Part shown: piece by piece, positions 2 to 56,119 of the stretch
Position numbering within the stretch: the stretch's first letter is position 1
How the letters are laid out: each line of letters begins with the position of its first letter
Virus record (IMG/VR): IMGVR_UViG_3300037423_001065
Location: 1 to 64,000 of that record
Source: a virus
Direction: 5' to 3' (one strand)
DNA length: 64,000 nucleotides
Translations under genes and position numbers: made by a program
The notes under the pieces: model-generated
What the model was told of the DNA's origin: nothing
Database searches by the model: none
Seen by the model: only the letters and a program-made list of their open reading frames with translations

Positions 2-1393
2 CGCGTCGCCGCGCACGGCAAGCACGGCGTCACCGGCGAGATTGACGGCGCCCACCACAAGATCACCTGGGACAAGGTCCTGGGCCACAAGTCGCGCGTC
101 GCCATCCACGGCCGCATCATCGACCAAGGCGAGGATGGCATGCTCCTACAGGACCAGGCCGGCCGGCGCCGCTACGTCGCTACCCCCAACGAGGCAAAAG
201 AGGACCCGCTCGTGATCGCGAAAGCATTCGACCCGCGCCGCCCCGTGCTCCTGTTCAAGGGCGGGCCGATCGCGAACCGGCCGGGCCTGGTCAAGCGGCC
301 GGTCACGGACAAGAACGGCGTCCAGACGCAGCGCTGGGTCAGCACCGACCAGGCGGCCGCGCCGGCGCAACCAGGCGCGCACGTCGGTTTCGTGAACGGC
401 GCGCACCGCGGGCACGGCCAGGTCACGGCCGCCGGCCAGCATGGCGTCACCGTCAAGGACGACGCCGGCGGCGAGCATCGCGTGCGCCACGGCGCCATCA
501 CGCACCACTGGGAAGGCGCCGGCAAGCCGACCAGCTCGCCGCACGAGCAGCGCCAGGCCGACGCCGGCGCCGAGCCGGCGAAGGGTGACGCAGTGTTCGA
601 CCAGGCCGAGGTGGCGAAGCTGCCGAAAAAGGTGAACCAGCCGCACAAGACCTGGGGCGACCTGGTCAAGCACGGCTCCGAGGGCCTGGAGCAGTTCAAG
701 CAGCAACTGTCCGGCATCGCGAAGTCCATGGGCCTGGTCGAGGGCAAGCGGCCCGACGACATGACCGAGAAGGACTGGGCCGACGAGAACGGCTTCGTGT
801 TCATCGCGCCGCTCAAGAGCGAGGCGCGCTCGAAGGAAAAGGTCGAGGCCGATTACGGCGGCGACTGGTCGCAACTGCGCGACGTGGTGCGCGCGACCAT
901 CAGCGTGCCCAGCATGGCGGACGTGAAAACCGCGATCGCCAAGCTGAAAGAGGCCGGCGTGCACCTGGCGCAGCAACCCAAGGACCGGTTCTCCGAGCCG
1001 ACCAGCGAGGGCTACCGCGACGCCATGACGATCGTCAAGCTGCCCAACGGCATGCTCGCCGAGCTCCAGATTCACGTGAAGGCGATGACCCTGGCGAAGG
1101 AAAAGGGCCATCACGCCTACGGCGTGTGCCGATCGCTGCGCGCGAAGTACAACGAGGCGTCGCCCACCGACAAATGGTCGGACGAGGACCACACCAAGTT
1201 CTACGAGGCGCTGAAAGAGCAGAAGGAGCTGTACGGCAACGCCTGGGCCCAGGCGACGGCCGGCGGCCAGCCGGAGGCGAAGGTCGCCGGCAAGGACGGC
1301 AAGCCCGGCGCGTCGCAAAAAAGCGACGAGCGGCCCTTGCAAAAAGGCGGGACTTCATCGAAAATGATCATGTTGGTTAGGAAATCGAAGTGA
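2..1393 (+). CDS. 5'-truncated multidomain protein: SH3/KOW-like repeats plus a RelA/SpoT-like (small alarmone synthetase-type) nucleotidyltransferase domain
   Basis: Frame is open from position 2 into ORF 140-1393. Motifs PLKSEARSKEK, LRDVVRAT, GYRD, ELQIH and GHHAY match the RelA_SpoT synthetase pattern. Confidence 0.75.
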   Translation, partial: RVAAHGKHGVTGEIDGAHHKITWDKVLGHKSRVAIHGRIIDQGEDGMLLQDQAGRRRYVATPNEAKEDPLVIAKAFDPRRPVLLFKGGPIANRPGLVKRPVTDKNGVQTQRWVSTDQAAAPAQPGAHVGFVNGAHRGHGQVTAAGQHGVTVKDDAGGEHRVRHGAITHHWEGAGKPTSSPHEQRQADAGAEPAKGDAVFDQAEVAKLPKKVNQPHKTWGDLVKHGSEGLEQFKQQLSGIAKSMGLVEGKRPDDMTEKDWADENGFVFIAPLKSEARSKEKVEADYGGDWSQLRDVVRATISVPSMADVKTAIAKLKEAGVHLAQQPKDRFSEPTSEGYRDAMTIVKLPNGMLAELQIHVKAMTLAKEKGHHAYGVCRSLRAKYNEASPTDKWSDEDHTKFYEALKEQKELYGNAWAQATAGGQPEAKVAGKDGKPGASQKSDERPLQKGGTSSKMIMLVRKSK

Positions 1394-1632
1394 ACGAAAA
1401 CCCGAACATGGTCTACATCGAGAACGAGGGCGCGCTGTTCCGCGGCCCGGCTCGTAGCAACCCTGTCGAGGTCTGGAACGTCGCGAAGGGCGCGTTCGTT
1501 CCGTACATGGGTAGCAAGGACAAGCCGATCGACTGGGGCAACGAAATCAGCGAGGCGGAAGCCAAGGAGCTGATGGGCGAAGGCGCCGAAGTCGAGGGCG
1601 AGCAAGAACAGCCGGCTCCTGCCGGCGAATGA
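1390..1632 (+). CDS. Small acidic hypothetical protein (80 aa), possible antitoxin/partner of the upstream enzyme
   Basis: GTG start overlaps the upstream stop (GTGA); phage-like codon usage. Confidence 0.7.
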   Translation: MNENPNMVYIENEGALFRGPARSNPVEVWNVAKGAFVPYMGSKDKPIDWGNEISEAEAKELMGEGAEVEGEQEQPAPAGE

Positions 1633-1641
1633 AAGCGCGAG

Positions 1642-1895
1642 GGGCCCGGGGTGACAGCCGGGTCTAACTTTACCGGGTAGGCGTACCGAAGCGAGCGGTC
1701 CCGGGTCTATGACAAAAGCGCTAGGAGCCTGGTGCTGCGCACCGTTCTGTCGCGGAGCGCGGCATCAGGCGCCGAACATTTTCAGAACCCCGGGGGGTGT
1801 GTCGGGTTGGCGCCGGCACCGTGTCATCGGAACCTCCTAGCGAAGCAAAGCCCACACTGCCCAATGTGAGCCTCCCGGGATTCACTACTACCTGA
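1642..1895 (+). ncRNA. Candidate structured ncRNA A (nested multi-stem with possible pseudoknot)
   Basis: Complementary segments 1674-80/1888-94, 1697-1705/1874-82, 1719-27/1834-42, 1728-40/1757-69 and 1770-75/1807-12; crossing pair 1709-14/1822-27; followed by a terminator. Confidence 0.55.
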
Positions 1896-1896
1896 C

Positions 1897-1928
1897 ACGC
1901 CGCGGCGCATTCTGCCCGCGGCGTTTTT
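1897..1928 (+). terminator. Rho-independent terminator
   Basis: ACGCCGCGG/CCGCGGCGT stem followed by a T run. Confidence 0.8.
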
Positions 1929-1930
1929 GC

Positions 1931-1946
1931 GTCGTGAGCCGAAACT
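1931..1946 (+). promoter_or_regulatory. Putative late promoter motif driving ncRNA B
   Basis: GTCGTGAGCCGAAACT, immediately after a terminator; matches the recurring motif. Confidence 0.6.
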
Positions 1947-1951
1947 GGGTA

Positions 1952-2165
1952 CTGCCATCGGGAGATGGCGGCTTGGCCTGCGCGTTCGCGCGCTGTGCTG
2001 TTGCGACCCTGAGCGGCTTCCATTGGGGAAATAAAGGCCGCAGTTAGGTCACGATCGTGTCGTCTAGGGGTAGGCGGCATCCTTTCCTGCGGGGCTTCGG
2101 GGCTCGCAGTAGACGGGGGCCTAACCGTGAGGCCGGGGCGGGAAACCGCTCCGGCCTTTCGTCTT
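1952..2165 (+). ncRNA. Candidate structured ncRNA B (about 210 nt) ending in a terminator hairpin
   Basis: Hairpins with GGGA, UUCG, cUUCGg and GAAA tetraloops; stems 2013-19/2035-41, 2060-66/2110-16 and 2087-93/2103-09; own promoter motif; terminator at 2130-2165. Confidence 0.6.
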
Positions 2166-2181
2166 GTCGTGACTCGATGAT
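2166..2181 (+). promoter_or_regulatory. Putative late promoter motif (leaderless start)
   Basis: GTCGTGACTCGATGAT, 6 nt before ATG 2188, no SD sequence. Confidence 0.7.
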
Positions 2182-2187
2182 CGCGAG

Positions 2188-3342
2188 ATGGGCCTGTTTG
2201 TCGACCTCGAGCCGCTGTCCGAATCGCAAACGGACATGGCGCTCAACCTGATCTACAAGGCCATCCACGATCACAACGGCGAGGAGATTTGGCTCCCGCT
2301 GGACAACCCTTTCGTGGCGCGCCTCGCCGAGCTGTTCACGCAGCGCGGACTCGATCGCCTGGACGCCTTCCGCCGCGAGCTCAAGGCATGGTCCGAGGGC
2401 GCGCGTCACCGCGCCGGCATGGAGCGCGTCGCGCGGCCCGCCGGCATCATGGAGCGCTGGTCGCCTGGCGAACTCGAGCTGGTGAAGCTGTACCTCGAGC
2501 ACCTGCCGCCCGCCGAGTGGACCCTCGAGGACCACATGATGATGGTGGACTGGCTGACGCAGCGCTACCTGCCGGCCAGCGACATGCAGACCGAGGCCGA
2601 GTGGCTGGCGACCCGCGCGACGCTCATGGGGCGCGTGCAGGCGAGCATGGACCAGGTGACGGCCGCCCAGGCCGACCAGGTCATCGCGGCGCTGCCGCTC
2701 ACCGCCCAGGCGGCGATCGACCTGTTCCCGTTCACGAAACCGCAGCGCGCCGGCCTCGAGTACGCCGTCGAGCGCGCCGGCGAGAACGTGCGCGAGGTCG
2801 CCAACGACGTGCGGCGTCGCATGCGCCAGACGATCGCGCAGCACGTCAACGCCGTGCACCTGGGCGACGCGCCGCTGGCCGCCTCGCTCGAGACCAAGCT
2901 GGGCGACCAGTTCGCGCAGCTCAATCGCGACTGGCGTCGCATCGCCGTGACCGAGACCGTCGAGGCGCAGAACCAGGGCTACATCGCCAGCCTGCCGCGC
3001 GGCGCGCGCGTCAAGCGCATCGAGCAGTACAAGGGCGCGTGTAAGTTTTGCCGCAACATCGACGGCCGGGTCATGAACGTGGTCGACGCCGGCGACGTGC
3101 ACAAGAACGGCCAGACCGACATTTGGCCTGGCAAGACCAACGTCGGCCGCTCGGCGGCGCTGCACAAGCGCCTGGGCGGCCTGCTGATCGAGCGCGAGCC
3201 GCACGAGCTGTGGTGGCCGGCTGCAGGAACGCAACACCCCCACTGCCGCGGCCGCTGGGTGCCGACGATCGCCGACCAGGCCGGCGACGACCCGCAGTTC
3301 GGCGACTGGCTGCGCAAGACCCTGGCCGGGAGCAAGACGTGA
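2188..3342 (+). CDS. Head morphogenesis protein, MuF/SPP1 gp7-like
   Basis: WRRIAVTE, CKFC and C-terminal HPHCRGRW motifs typical of the MuF family. Confidence 0.8.
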   Translation: MGLFVDLEPLSESQTDMALNLIYKAIHDHNGEEIWLPLDNPFVARLAELFTQRGLDRLDAFRRELKAWSEGARHRAGMERVARPAGIMERWSPGELELVKLYLEHLPPAEWTLEDHMMMVDWLTQRYLPASDMQTEAEWLATRATLMGRVQASMDQVTAAQADQVIAALPLTAQAAIDLFPFTKPQRAGLEYAVERAGENVREVANDVRRRMRQTIAQHVNAVHLGDAPLAASLETKLGDQFAQLNRDWRRIAVTETVEAQNQGYIASLPRGARVKRIEQYKGACKFCRNIDGRVMNVVDAGDVHKNGQTDIWPGKTNVGRSAALHKRLGGLLIEREPHELWWPAAGTQHPHCRGRWVPTIADQAGDDPQFGDWLRKTLAGSKT

Positions 3343-55012: not shown

Positions 55013-56119
55013 TCAGGTCTTGACGATGGTCACGCGCTCGGCCGCGCGCGTGAGGGCGGTATAGAGCCAGCGCGCGGCGTTCTCGCGGAACACGGCCGAC
55101 TCATCGAAAACGAAAACATAGTCCCACTGCGAGCCCTGGGCCTTGTGCCCGGTGAGCGCCCAACCGAACGTGAACTGGTCGGCGTGCTTCTTCTCGAACC
55201 ACTCGAGGTCGGCCTCGGTGCCGCGGAAAAACTCGATCGGCGTCTCCACGTCGACCGGCAGGAACACCTTCGGGTCGTCCAGGGACTTGACCGTCATCTT
55301 CACGCGCTTGGGGTTGCCGTCCTCCTTGAATCGCAGCGGCTCCCAAAGCGACCCGTTGAGCAGGCCCTTCGTACGGTTGTTCTTCAAGCACACCAGGCGA
55401 TCGCCGAACACCGGCCGCTCGCCCTCGTACCCTTTGAGCTGGCGGATGCGAGCATTGAACGCCTGGCGCGTGCGATTGCGGCCGACGAGCACCTGGTCGG
55501 CCGCCAGGACCTCCTCGCGCTCGAGCTGGTCGCGCGTGATCACCTTGCTGTCGCCCCAGGTGCCGAGCTCGAGCGCGCGGCCCTCGCGCACGTCCATGGA
55601 CATGCGGATGATCGGGCTCTCGGCCGCCTGGCGGTGAATCTCGGTGAGCATCACGTCCGGCTCGCAGTCGGTGAAGTAGCCGGCCCCGTCGATCGGGGGG
55701 AGCTGCGCGGGGTCGCCCAGCACCAGGATGCGCGTGCCGTAGCTCACCAGGTCCTTGCCCAGCTCCTCGCCGACCATGCCGACCTCGTCCACGATGACCA
55801 GGCGGGCATACGCCACGTCGCTGTCCGGGTTGAGTTTGAAGATTGTCTCGCCGGTGATAATGTCCTCGTCGGGCTTGTAGATCGCGCTGTGAATCGTGCT
55901 CGAGGGCGAGCATCCCTTGCGACTGAGCACAAGGGCGGCCTTGCCCGTGAAGCACATAAACAGGACCCGGCCGTCAACGTCTGCCGCGATCTGCTTCGCC
56001 AGCGTCGTCTTGCCGGTACCGGCGAAGCCGAACACGCGGAAGATTTGCGGGCCGTGAGGGTCCGCAAGCCAACGCTTTATGGCGAGCAGGGCGCGGTCCT
56101 GCTGTGGAGACCACTGCAT
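55013..56119 (-). CDS. RecD/Dda-like SF1 helicase
   Basis: GFAGTGKT, VDEVGM, GDPAQLPP, HKAQGSQW and YTALTRA motifs. Confidence 0.88.
   Translation of the reverse strand: MQWSPQQDRALLAIKRWLADPHGPQIFRVFGFAGTGKTTLAKQIAADVDGRVLFMCFTGKAALVLSRKGCSPSSTIHSAIYKPDEDIITGETIFKLNPDSDVAYARLVIVDEVGMVGEELGKDLVSYGTRILVLGDPAQLPPIDGAGYFTDCEPDVMLTEIHRQAAESPIIRMSMDVREGRALELGTWGDSKVITRDQLEREEVLAADQVLVGRNRTRQAFNARIRQLKGYEGERPVFGDRLVCLKNNRTKGLLNGSLWEPLRFKEDGNPKRVKMTVKSLDDPKVFLPVDVETPIEFFRGTEADLEWFEKKHADQFTFGWALTGHKAQGSQWDYVFVFDESAVFRENAARWLYTALTRAAERVTIVKT

What the first reader, a model, noticed from the sequence alone, without database searches (positions are those of the whole stretch)
1642..1928. Candidate pseudoknotted ncRNA A
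Seen: about 250 nt without a convincing ORF in a very gene-dense genome. It has three nested long-range helices (CGGGTAG/CTACCTG, GGTCCCGGG/CCCGGGATT, CGCTAGGAG/CTCCTAGCG), a 13-bp inner stem with G-U pairs, and a crossing ATGACA(1709)/TGTCAT(1822) pair, then a terminator. It does not look like tRNA, tmRNA or RNase P RNA to me. Inference: a complex RNA (ribozyme-like, antitoxin or decoy) co-transcribed with the RelA-like operon.
Basis: partly seen in the sequence, partly recalled or inferred. Interest (0 to 1): 0.75.

Follow-up and report, generated by a model that had tools for sequence, protein, structure and literature searches.

The report
Widespread kissing-loop phage RNA motif

Summary
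Region 1642-1928 lies in a 555-nt gene-free gap (1633-2187) of a 98-kb PHB04-like phage, between an 80-aa gene and the MuF-like head gene. However, the global fold is only marginally better than shuffles (z -2.2). Two of its three long-range helices and its crossing pair are broken in the only close homologue.

Comparison shows a chain of local modules instead:
- two hairpins (1643-1664, 1673-1704);
- a window-specific 13-bp hairpin (1728-1769);
- a conserved module at 1785-1883;
- an intrinsic terminator (1897-1928).

The conserved module has outer stem P1, hairpin P2 with loop GUUGGCG, a variable linker carrying ACCUCCUAG, and mini-hairpin P3, whose loop pairs with the P2 loop. A covariance model built on it finds 12 copies in related phages. 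A loop-based pattern finds at least 120 IMG/VR contigs, and all 80 that were fetched give full-length matches. About 95% of cells are paired against 69% in shuffles. All P1 pairs covary, G-U pairs far outnumber A-C, and the kissing pair switches A-U to G-C without exception. Rfam 15 has no such family.

Function is inferred: most likely a scaffolded antisense or leader RNA resembling P1 c4, presenting a variable, often anti-Shine-Dalgarno, seed.

The parts
1643..1664 (+). Hairpin h1 (GCCCGG / CCGGGT stem, loop GGTGACAG)
   Evidence: Folds locally in the window and in L003. L003 has one extra G-C pair made by matched insertions on both strands. Found only in the window and L003.
1673..1704 (+). 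Hairpin h2 (CCGGG ... CCCGG) with a 22-nt loop containing GCGTACC
   Evidence: L003 has CCTGG ... CCAGG, a compensatory G-C to U-A change. It resembles 'motif X' of relatives by eye, but the motif X covariance model does not match it.
1719..1727 (+). SD-like box CGCTAGGAG, followed by GTG at 1732; perfectly complementary to linker 1834-1842
   Evidence: Linker-to-upstream duplex is -32.7 kcal/mol against -25.8 +/- 3.2 for shuffled linkers, and 3% of shuffles do as well. The 45-aa ORF 1732-1869 is not conserved in L003.
1728..1769 (+). 13-bp hairpin with two G-U pairs; specific to this window
   Evidence: Absent from L003, where about 205 nt including a canonical motif X lie instead. No match in any other locus.
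1785..1883 (+). Conserved 'Y module'. P1 is 1785-1797 / 1871-1883. P2 is 1799-1805 / 1813-1819 with loop GTTGGCG at 1806-1812. The linker is 1820-1854 and carries ACCTCCTAG. P3 is 1855-1857 / 1866-1868 with loop 1858-1865. The kissing pairs are 1809-1811 with 1859-1861.
   Evidence: Covariance model hits: 93.5 bits with R1 and 86.2 bits with R2. Covariation is shown. Strand and RNA nature follow from 168 G-U against 18 A-C cells.
1831..1842 (+). Anti-Shine-Dalgarno-like stretch AACCTCCTAGCG in the single-stranded linker
   Evidence: Anti-SD 5-mers occur in 21 of 90 distinct family linkers against 3.6 expected (maximum 10 in 1000 shuffles). Anti-SD 4-mers occur in 40 against 14.3 +/- 3.0.
1897..1928 (+). 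Intrinsic terminator: 9-bp GC stem, 10-nt loop, T5
   Evidence: The 3' stem arm and T run are conserved in L003. The consensus scan missed it because its loop limit is 8 nt.
1931..1946 (+). GTCGTGA box; starts the next unit (element B), so it marks the 3' boundary of A
   Evidence: GTCGTGA-N4-(-10-like hexamer) recurs 15-40 nt before at least 8 start codons on the + strand. The geometry matches the annotated P1 late promoters, which have a -22 box, 4 nt, then a -10. The promoter reading is an analogy only.

Best explanation
Finding A is not one large pseudoknot. It is this phage's version of an intergenic 'RNA island', made of independently folding modules.

Its functional core is the module at 1785-1883. 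This is a member of a large, previously uncatalogued family of phage RNAs. A 13-16-bp outer stem (P1) stacks on a 7-bp hairpin (P2, loop GUURGCG). A variable linker follows, then a 3-bp mini-hairpin (P3, loop CUGCYNNAU), whose loop base-pairs with the P2 loop. Together these form a rigid three-way junction. A terminator (1897-1928) ends the unit.

Shown:
- the structure;
- its conservation and its strand;
- that it is an RNA-level feature.

Inferred (my odds about 40%): the invariant kissing-loop scaffold stabilises and presents the variable linker as an antisense seed. The seed is often anti-Shine-Dalgarno (here ACCUCCUAG). It would pair with ribosome-binding regions of an mRNA on the same transcript or in trans, in the manner of the c4 RNA of phages P1/P7.

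In this window the module has no promoter box of its own. It would therefore be made as the 3' end of the RelA-like/80-aa transcript. Its seed can pair with an SD-like box 106 nt upstream.
For: Structure and family:
- RNAalifold on an unfitted MAFFT alignment of four copies gives 11 of 23 pairs with compensatory changes.
- Model R1 finds eight further copies in related phages, six of them at E <= 5e-6, one at 2e-4 and one at 0.02.
- On the 12-copy alignment, 94.6% of cells are paired against 68.1% in shuffles and 36-47% in slid controls. 21 of 27 pairs have changes on both sides.
- A pattern built from the two loops alone hits at least 120 IMG/VR contigs. It hits 0 of 401 bacterial genomes and 0 reversed controls.
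- All 80 fetched loci give full-length model matches, including P1 and P2, which the pattern did not specify.
- On the 94 copies (91 distinct), 94.9% of cells are paired against 68.7% in shuffles. All 13 P1 pairs and 6 of 7 P2 pairs covary.
- The kissing pair is A-U in 83 copies, G-C in 8 and mismatched in none.
- G-U cells number 168 against 18 A-C cells, which shows RNA read from this strand.
- In L003 the P1 pair 1796/1872 changes G-C to A-U.

Mechanism:
- Anti-SD motifs are enriched about 3- to 6-fold in linkers.
- In several members the linker is complementary to the SD of the gene that starts about 20 nt after P1. Examples are L132 at -18.4 against -8.6 kcal/mol and L088 at -12.3 against -4.7, each beaten by 0 of 100 shuffles.
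- In L124 and L137 a perfect TTGACA-16-TATAAT promoter ends 7 nt before the module, so the module is the 5' end of a transcript.
- P1 c4 has the same layout: a long outer stem enclosing hairpins and seeds, with annotated target sites both upstream and downstream on the same transcript.
Against: - No expression data exist for any member.
- The invariant nucleotides lie in the loops and junction, not in the linker. That fits a protein-, RNAP- or ribosome-binding core as well as it fits a scaffold.
- Only 23-44% of linkers carry anti-SD motifs. Others form a hairpin or are A/U-rich.
- Complementarity of linkers to +/-400-nt flanks is not enriched overall. The difference in duplex energy between real and shuffled linkers averages about 0 upstream and -0.3 kcal/mol downstream. 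It is only slightly enriched for nearby SD regions, at -7.7 against -6.6.
- Loop invariance in the 80 pattern-derived loci is partly due to how they were found.
- The covariance alignments are fitted to the structure.
- In this window no promoter precedes the module, so this copy could be idle.
Confidence: 0.5

Rival explanations
1. A cis-acting leader or operon element whose invariant kissing-loop core binds a machine or protein, for example RNA polymerase for processive antitermination (as with HK022 put or Bacillus EAR RNAs), an RNase, or the ribosome. The linker would then be merely a tolerated insertion site.
For: - The invariant bases are in L2, L3 and the P3/P1 junction, while the linker is hypervariable.
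- The module sits inside operons, with a median gap of 29 nt after the preceding ORF and 48 nt before the next.
- It lies directly behind consensus promoters in one subgroup.
- In the PHB04-like clade a terminator follows within 0-15 nt.
Against: - Anti-SD enrichment in linkers would be unexplained.
- There is no similarity to any Rfam antiterminator or leader family.
- Many members have no terminator downstream. Only 17 of 94 show a T run within about 60 nt after the module.
Confidence: 0.22
2. A tRNA-shaped mimic or decoy. P1 would act as an acceptor-like stem, and the kissing loops would imitate the D-loop/T-loop contact. The RNA would serve as substrate or decoy for a tRNA-directed enzyme, such as the neighbouring RelA/SpoT-like toxin or RNase P.
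For: - In relatives the same gap holds tRNA-Met, tRNA-Glu and a permuted tmRNA.
- One copy ends 2 nt before a tRNA-Met (L163), and one follows a tRNA-Tyr by about 35 nt (L004).
- Some members have a fourth hairpin in the linker, giving a cloverleaf-like four-way junction.
- The upstream protein has a RelA_SpoT domain.
Against: - Arm order is the reverse of a tRNA.
- The loops lack T-loop and D-loop consensus, and there is no CCA.
- ARAGORN and the Rfam tRNA clan do not match.
- Only 3 of 81 family loci have a tRNA nearby.
- Most members are next to primase/helicase or other genes, not RelA-like genes.
Confidence: 0.08
3. One reading: one roughly 250-nt RNA with three nested long-range helices, an inner 13-bp stem and a crossing ATGACA/TGTCAT pair (ribozyme-like).
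For: - All segments exist, and the fold is within 2.5 kcal/mol of the MFE.
- The + strand folds better than the - strand, with z -2.19 against -0.50.
Against: - Two of the three helices and the crossing pair are broken in L003, and the 13-bp stem is absent there.
- The 3' arm of helix 2 belongs to the conserved P1.
- No ribozyme family matches.
Confidence: 0.04
4. In this particular phage the region is a decaying remnant of the RNA island: a module copy without a promoter, plus relics. It would be transcribed only by read-through and have no role here.
For: - No GTCGTGA box or sigma-70-like promoter lies upstream of the module on the + strand.
- L003 carries a GTCGTGA box 9 nt before its copy and a canonical motif X, both of which the window lacks.
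- Several complete relatives lack the module altogether.
Against: - The window copy is one of the best-scoring members at 86-93 bits, with all pairs intact.
- A 37-nt block (about 1785-1821) differs from L003 at a single base, while the flanks are 75-80% identical.
Confidence: 0.12
5. A small protein gene: GTG 1732 to 1869, 45 aa, behind the AGGAG box.
For: A good SD (AGGAG) lies 4 nt before GTG 1732. The ORF is listed.
Against: - L003 has an unrelated 55-aa frame at the homologous start.
- The ORF overlaps an RNA module whose variation is compensatory rather than codon-like.
Confidence: 0.03

Closest known systems
c4 antisense RNA of phages P1/P7 (Rfam RF01695) and, from my own knowledge, the related CI RNA of satellite P4
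   Same: - A phage RNA of about 80-100 nt, made from the leader or an internal part of an operon transcript.
- A long outer stem encloses hairpins and short single-stranded seeds.
- The seeds are complementary to ribosome-binding regions on the same transcript. In the P1 record, sites are annotated both upstream (a1, b1) and downstream (a2, b2).
- The scaffold is conserved while the seeds vary.
   Different: - There is no sequence or model similarity. RF01695 gives no match to any copy, and model R2 scores only 10 bits on P1 c4, through the outer stem alone.
- c4 has no loop-loop pseudoknot.
- The invariant GUURGCG and CUGCYNNAUG loops are specific to the new family.
- Antisense action and RNase P processing are untested here.
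Purine-type riboswitch aptamers (three-way junction with kissing L2/L3 loops)
   Same: An outer P1 with two hairpins whose loops pair with each other. Sometimes found in a 5' leader, and sometimes followed by a terminator.
   Different: - The junction is not conserved, and a 20-45-nt hypervariable linker sits in it.
- There is no Rfam riboswitch match.
- The module often lies in 3' or internal positions.
- There is no indication of a ligand.
Processive antitermination RNAs (HK022 put, EAR); compared from my own knowledge
   Same: Compact structured RNAs inside phage or operon transcripts, near promoters and ahead of terminators, acting in cis.
   Different: A different fold, since put is two adjacent hairpins. 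No homology, and no functional test here.
tRNA and permuted tmRNA genes that occupy the same gap in related phages
   Same: The same genomic island. An acceptor-like stem and a loop-loop tertiary contact.
   Different: Not detected by ARAGORN or Rfam. Reverse arm order, no T-loop, no CCA and no tag reading frame.

Membership tests
Provisional 'Y module' family (defined here) | Outer stem P1 of 10-16 bp enclosing the whole module | tested here: met
   Window 1785-1797 / 1871-1883, with 12 of 13 pairs. All P1 pairs covary across 91 distinct copies.
Provisional 'Y module' family (defined here) | P2 hairpin with 7-nt loop GUURGCG directly after the P1 5' strand | tested here: met
   Window 1799-1819, loop GTTGGCG at 1806-1812.
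Provisional 'Y module' family (defined here) | P3 (C-R-C / G-Y-G) with loop UGCYNNAU, followed by A and then the P1 3' strand | tested here: met
   Window 1855-1868, then A1869.
Provisional 'Y module' family (defined here) | Loop-loop pairs RGC / GCY that covary | tested here: met
   Window GGC 1809-1811 with GCC 1859-1861. Across the family: A-U 83, G-C 8, mismatches 0.
Provisional 'Y module' family (defined here) | Full-length covariance-model match | tested here: met
   93.5 bits (R1) and 86.2 bits (R2). The window was in the seed alignment, so this holds partly by construction. The 80 pattern-derived loci were not in the seed.
c4 antisense RNA (RF01695) | Match to the Rfam model at or above 45 bits | tested here: not met
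   No match at the module in G000 or in three other carriers. None in the window at E <= 10.
c4 antisense RNA (RF01695) | Seeds complementary to an RBS on the same transcript | tested here: inconclusive
   The window linker pairs with the SD-like box 1719-1727, and 3% of shuffles do as well. The pairing is clear in L132 and L088 but absent in many members.
c4 antisense RNA (RF01695) | 5' end made by RNase P | not testable with these tools
   Needs an enzymatic assay or end mapping.
tmRNA (standard or permuted) | tRNA-like domain with T arm and CCA end, plus a tag reading frame | tested here: not met
   ARAGORN finds none in the window, and Rfam finds none. The relatives' tmRNAs share no motif with region A.
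'Motif X' RNA of related phages (two covarying hairpins, GGAGACGUACC loop) | Match to covariance model R3 | tested here: not met
   The best match in 1600-2200 with filters off is 4.3 bits, on the - strand, and 2.7 bits at h1. True members score 42-74 bits.
Intrinsic terminator | GC-rich hairpin immediately followed by a U run | tested here: met
   1897-1905 / 1916-1924, then T5. The consensus scan missed it only because the loop is 10 nt. Termination itself is untested.

The most novel reading that the evidence does not exclude
The module represents a new, abundant class of phage-specific structured RNA. Its invariant kissing-loop core would be a docking surface for a central host machine (RNA polymerase or the ribosome). 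That would make it a new kind of processive antiterminator or translation-hijacking RNA, rather than a c4-like antisense RNA.
Probability: 0.22. Interest if true: 0.85.

Novelty: new variant of a known kind. Interest (0 to 1): 0.62.

Why it matters
Large families of structured RNA that are still missing from Rfam are now rare.

This one has three features that make it worth attention:
- textbook covariation, including a covarying loop-loop pseudoknot;
- at least 120 viral contigs spanning 38-68% GC, but 0 of 401 sampled bacterial genomes with the pattern and only 1 of 151 with the model, that one inside a prophage;
- locations at strategic points of phage operons, directly behind perfect consensus promoters or after replication genes.

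If it is a scaffold for programmable anti-RBS seeds, it would extend the P1 c4 / P4 CI principle to a much wider set of phages and satellites. It would also give a compact natural chassis for antisense regulation. If instead the core binds polymerase or the ribosome, it would be a new regulatory RNA class.

For this genome, the result replaces a speculative 250-nt ribozyme-like fold with a defined 100-nt element that can be tested.

Tried and rejected
- Rfam 15 at gathering and E-value thresholds, on the window and on 40 related or carrier loci, found nothing at the module.
- ARAGORN found nothing in the window.
- Pseudogene idea: tblastn of the PHB04 and L004 genes that occupy this position gave no match in the gap.
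Contigs of the closest protein relatives (P0002-P0016, 64-81% identity) could therefore not be fetched, and only one close homologue of the whole region (L003) was available.
- Extra viral scans for closer relatives found none.
- Sequencing runs: no RNA holder is listed. Laid contigs showed only the identical phage and an L003-like variant, so there was no new variation.
- The motif X model does not match the window.
- A tRNA association of the family was rejected, at 3 of 81 loci.
- General cis-complementarity of linkers to +/-400-nt flanks is not enriched.
- BLAST of two family members against cultured phages gave no match.
- A literature search for the loop sequences found nothing relevant.
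- RF01695 (C4) and P1 c4 were compared directly. They are the same kind of layout but not the same family.
- Candidate trans targets in the window: only the cis box 1719-1727 and a coding-region site at 55508 matched.

Full report
SETTING

The window is the first 64 kb of a 98-kb IMG/VR virus record. It is related to Bordetella phage PHB04.

Finding A (1642-1928) lies in a 555-nt gap, 1633-2187. The flanking genes are:
- upstream, an 80-aa ORF (1390-1632) that follows a protein with a RelA_SpoT domain;
- downstream, a 384-aa gene (2188-3342) whose relatives are named Mu F-like.

PHB04 has two protein genes at this position. The gap shows no remnant of them.

THE OBSERVATION

The complementary segments, the 13-bp stem with two G-U pairs (1728-1740 / 1757-1769) and the terminator (1897-1905 / 1916-1924 plus T5) are all present. 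Rfam and ARAGORN find no known RNA.

The global fold is only marginally special:
- z is -2.19 on the + strand and -0.50 on the - strand.
- CCCGGG occurs four times, so many alternative pairings exist.

COMPARISON WITH THE ONE CLOSE HOMOLOGUE

L003 (90% protein identity) has a 688-nt gap. The 5' piece (1635-1704) and the 3' piece (1784-2187) are about 80% identical to it. The middle, which includes the 13-bp hairpin, is replaced by about 205 unrelated bases.

What is broken in L003:
- helix 1674/1888;
- helix 1697/1874;
- the ATGACA/TGTCAT pair.

What is kept through compensatory change:
- the local hairpin CCGGG/CCCGG, which becomes CCTGG/CCAGG;
- the pairing 1785-1797 / 1871-1883, where G-C becomes A-U and G-U becomes G-C.

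THE GAP IS AN RNA ISLAND

In relatives with 50-65% protein identity, the same gap holds:
- tRNA-Met, tRNA-Glu and other tRNAs;
- a permuted tmRNA (RF04321);
- a conserved two-hairpin 'motif X';

The window's hairpins h1 and h2 look like motif X by eye, but a covariance model of motif X does not match them.

THE CONSERVED MODULE

A profile of the 3' piece picked up L006 and L007. All four sequences share these parts in order:
- an outer stem;
- a hairpin with loop GUUGGCG or GUUAGCG;
- a variable linker;
- the box CACUGCYNNAUGUGA;
- the closing strand.

The evidence builds as follows:
- RNAalifold on the unfitted alignment gave 11 of 23 pairs with compensatory changes.
- Models R1 and R2 found 12 copies in nine related phage loci, two per genome in some.
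- 94.6% of cells are paired, against 68% in shuffles and about 40% in slid controls.
- The fourth base of loop L2 and a base of loop L3 switch together (G-C to A-U). This supports a loop-loop pseudoknot.

THE FAMILY IS LARGE

- R2 hit a prophage in one of 151 Burkholderiales genomes, at 44% GC.
- The same pattern hit none of 401 bacterial genomes (roughly a gigabase by my own sum) and no reversed control.
- All 80 fetched loci gave full-length matches of 29-67 bits.

On the 94 copies (91 distinct):
- 94.9% of cells are paired, against 68.7% in shuffles.
- All P1 pairs and 6 of 7 P2 pairs covary, with up to six pair types.
- The kissing pair is A-U in 83 copies, G-C in 8 and never mismatched.
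- G-U cells outnumber A-C cells 168 to 18. The structure is therefore RNA, read from the gene strand.

Two caveats apply. Loop invariance in the pattern-derived loci comes from how they were selected. The alignments are fitted to the model.

No Rfam family overlaps any copy. The literature search by loop sequence found nothing.

CONTEXT OF THE FAMILY

- The module sits in short gaps on the gene strand, with a median of 29 nt after one ORF and 48 nt before the next.
- It recurrently follows a primase or helicase gene and precedes a small gene.
- In one subgroup a perfect TTGACA-16-TATAAT promoter ends 7 nt before the module, and an AGGAG-ATG start follows about 20 nt after P1. There it is a 5' leader.
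- In the PHB04-like clade a terminator follows, and then a GTCGTGA box.
- That box plus a -10-like hexamer 4 nt later precedes many genes of the window. This mirrors the geometry of annotated P1 late promoters. The window's copy has no such box upstream.

MECHANISM (INFERRED)

The linker is hypervariable but enriched for anti-Shine-Dalgarno words:
- 5-mers occur in 21 of 90 linkers, against 3.6 expected;
- 4-mers occur in 40, against 14.3.

In some members the linker is perfectly complementary to the SD region of the next gene (L132, L088).

Because the linker lies inside P1, this pairing would itself be a pseudoknot.

The layout parallels P1 c4 RNA, which has annotated target sites both upstream and downstream on its own transcript. 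RF01695 does not match the family, however, and R2 scores only 10 bits on c4.

Points against the antisense reading:
- Many linkers lack such seeds.
- Cis complementarity is not enriched overall.
- The invariant bases sit in the core.

A protein- or polymerase-binding cis element is therefore a serious rival. A tRNA-mimic role tied to the RelA-like gene is unlikely, given the family's contexts and the tRNA count of 3 in 81 loci.

VERDICT

The drawn architecture and the ribozyme/antitoxin reading are not supported.

The real content is a member of a widespread phage RNA family that is not in Rfam 15. Here it is flanked by lineage-specific hairpins. Its function remains to be tested.

Noticed in passing
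L003:4496-4552; also L006, L009, L013, L026, L033, L034, L037-L040: 'Motif X' is a two-hairpin RNA motif with consensus CACGAGCGGUGAAAGCCCGCGCCGGAGACGUACCCGG. The third pair of hairpin 1 takes all four Watson-Crick forms. It scores 42-74 bits in 11 loci and has no Rfam match. It is followed by a long helix that pairs a GUCGUGAG box with its complement. It is absent from the window.
   Followed up: partly
L026:2177-2427, L033:1406-1667, L034:2159-2527: Related phages carry a permuted (two-piece) tmRNA and a tRNA-Met in the gap that holds finding A here. The window and L003 have neither.
   Followed up: partly
window 1931-2187: Element B, the next unit, begins at a GTCGTGA box. Positions 2005-2187 are nearly identical to L003. 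It is recognisably conserved in all relatives with 58-61% protein identity (L006-L010, L018, L019). It is therefore far more widely kept within this clade than the 5' part of A.
   Followed up: partly
window 2166, 13501, 14092, 19217, 33980, 43190, 47448, 50254 (+ strand): A recurrent GTCGTGA-N4-(-10-like hexamer) lies 15-40 nt before start codons, often directly after terminators. The geometry matches the -22 box / -10 late promoters annotated in phage P1. In several relatives the same box forms the first bases of the module's P1 stem.
   Followed up: partly
L112:1481-1598 (-): A Betaproteobacteria-1 RNA (RF02932, 101 bits) lies about 570 nt downstream of a module copy on the same strand.
   Followed up: no
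L034:2694-2782: Rfam anti-hemB (Burkholderia RNA 7) matches at 54.7 bits (cut-off 49.5), just upstream of the MuF gene of a relative. There is no such match in the window.
   Followed up: no
L163:4556-4672 (-) and L004:1307-1410: One module copy ends 2 nt before a tRNA-Met. Another starts about 35 nt after a tRNA-Tyr. Both suggest co-transcription and shared processing in those phages.
   Followed up: no
window 2-1632: The RelA_SpoT-domain protein and the 80-aa partner are conserved in PHB04, L003 and L006. PHB04 additionally has a separate annotated (p)ppGpp synthetase/hydrolase and a Ser/Thr phosphatase where the window has the RNA gap.
   Followed up: partly
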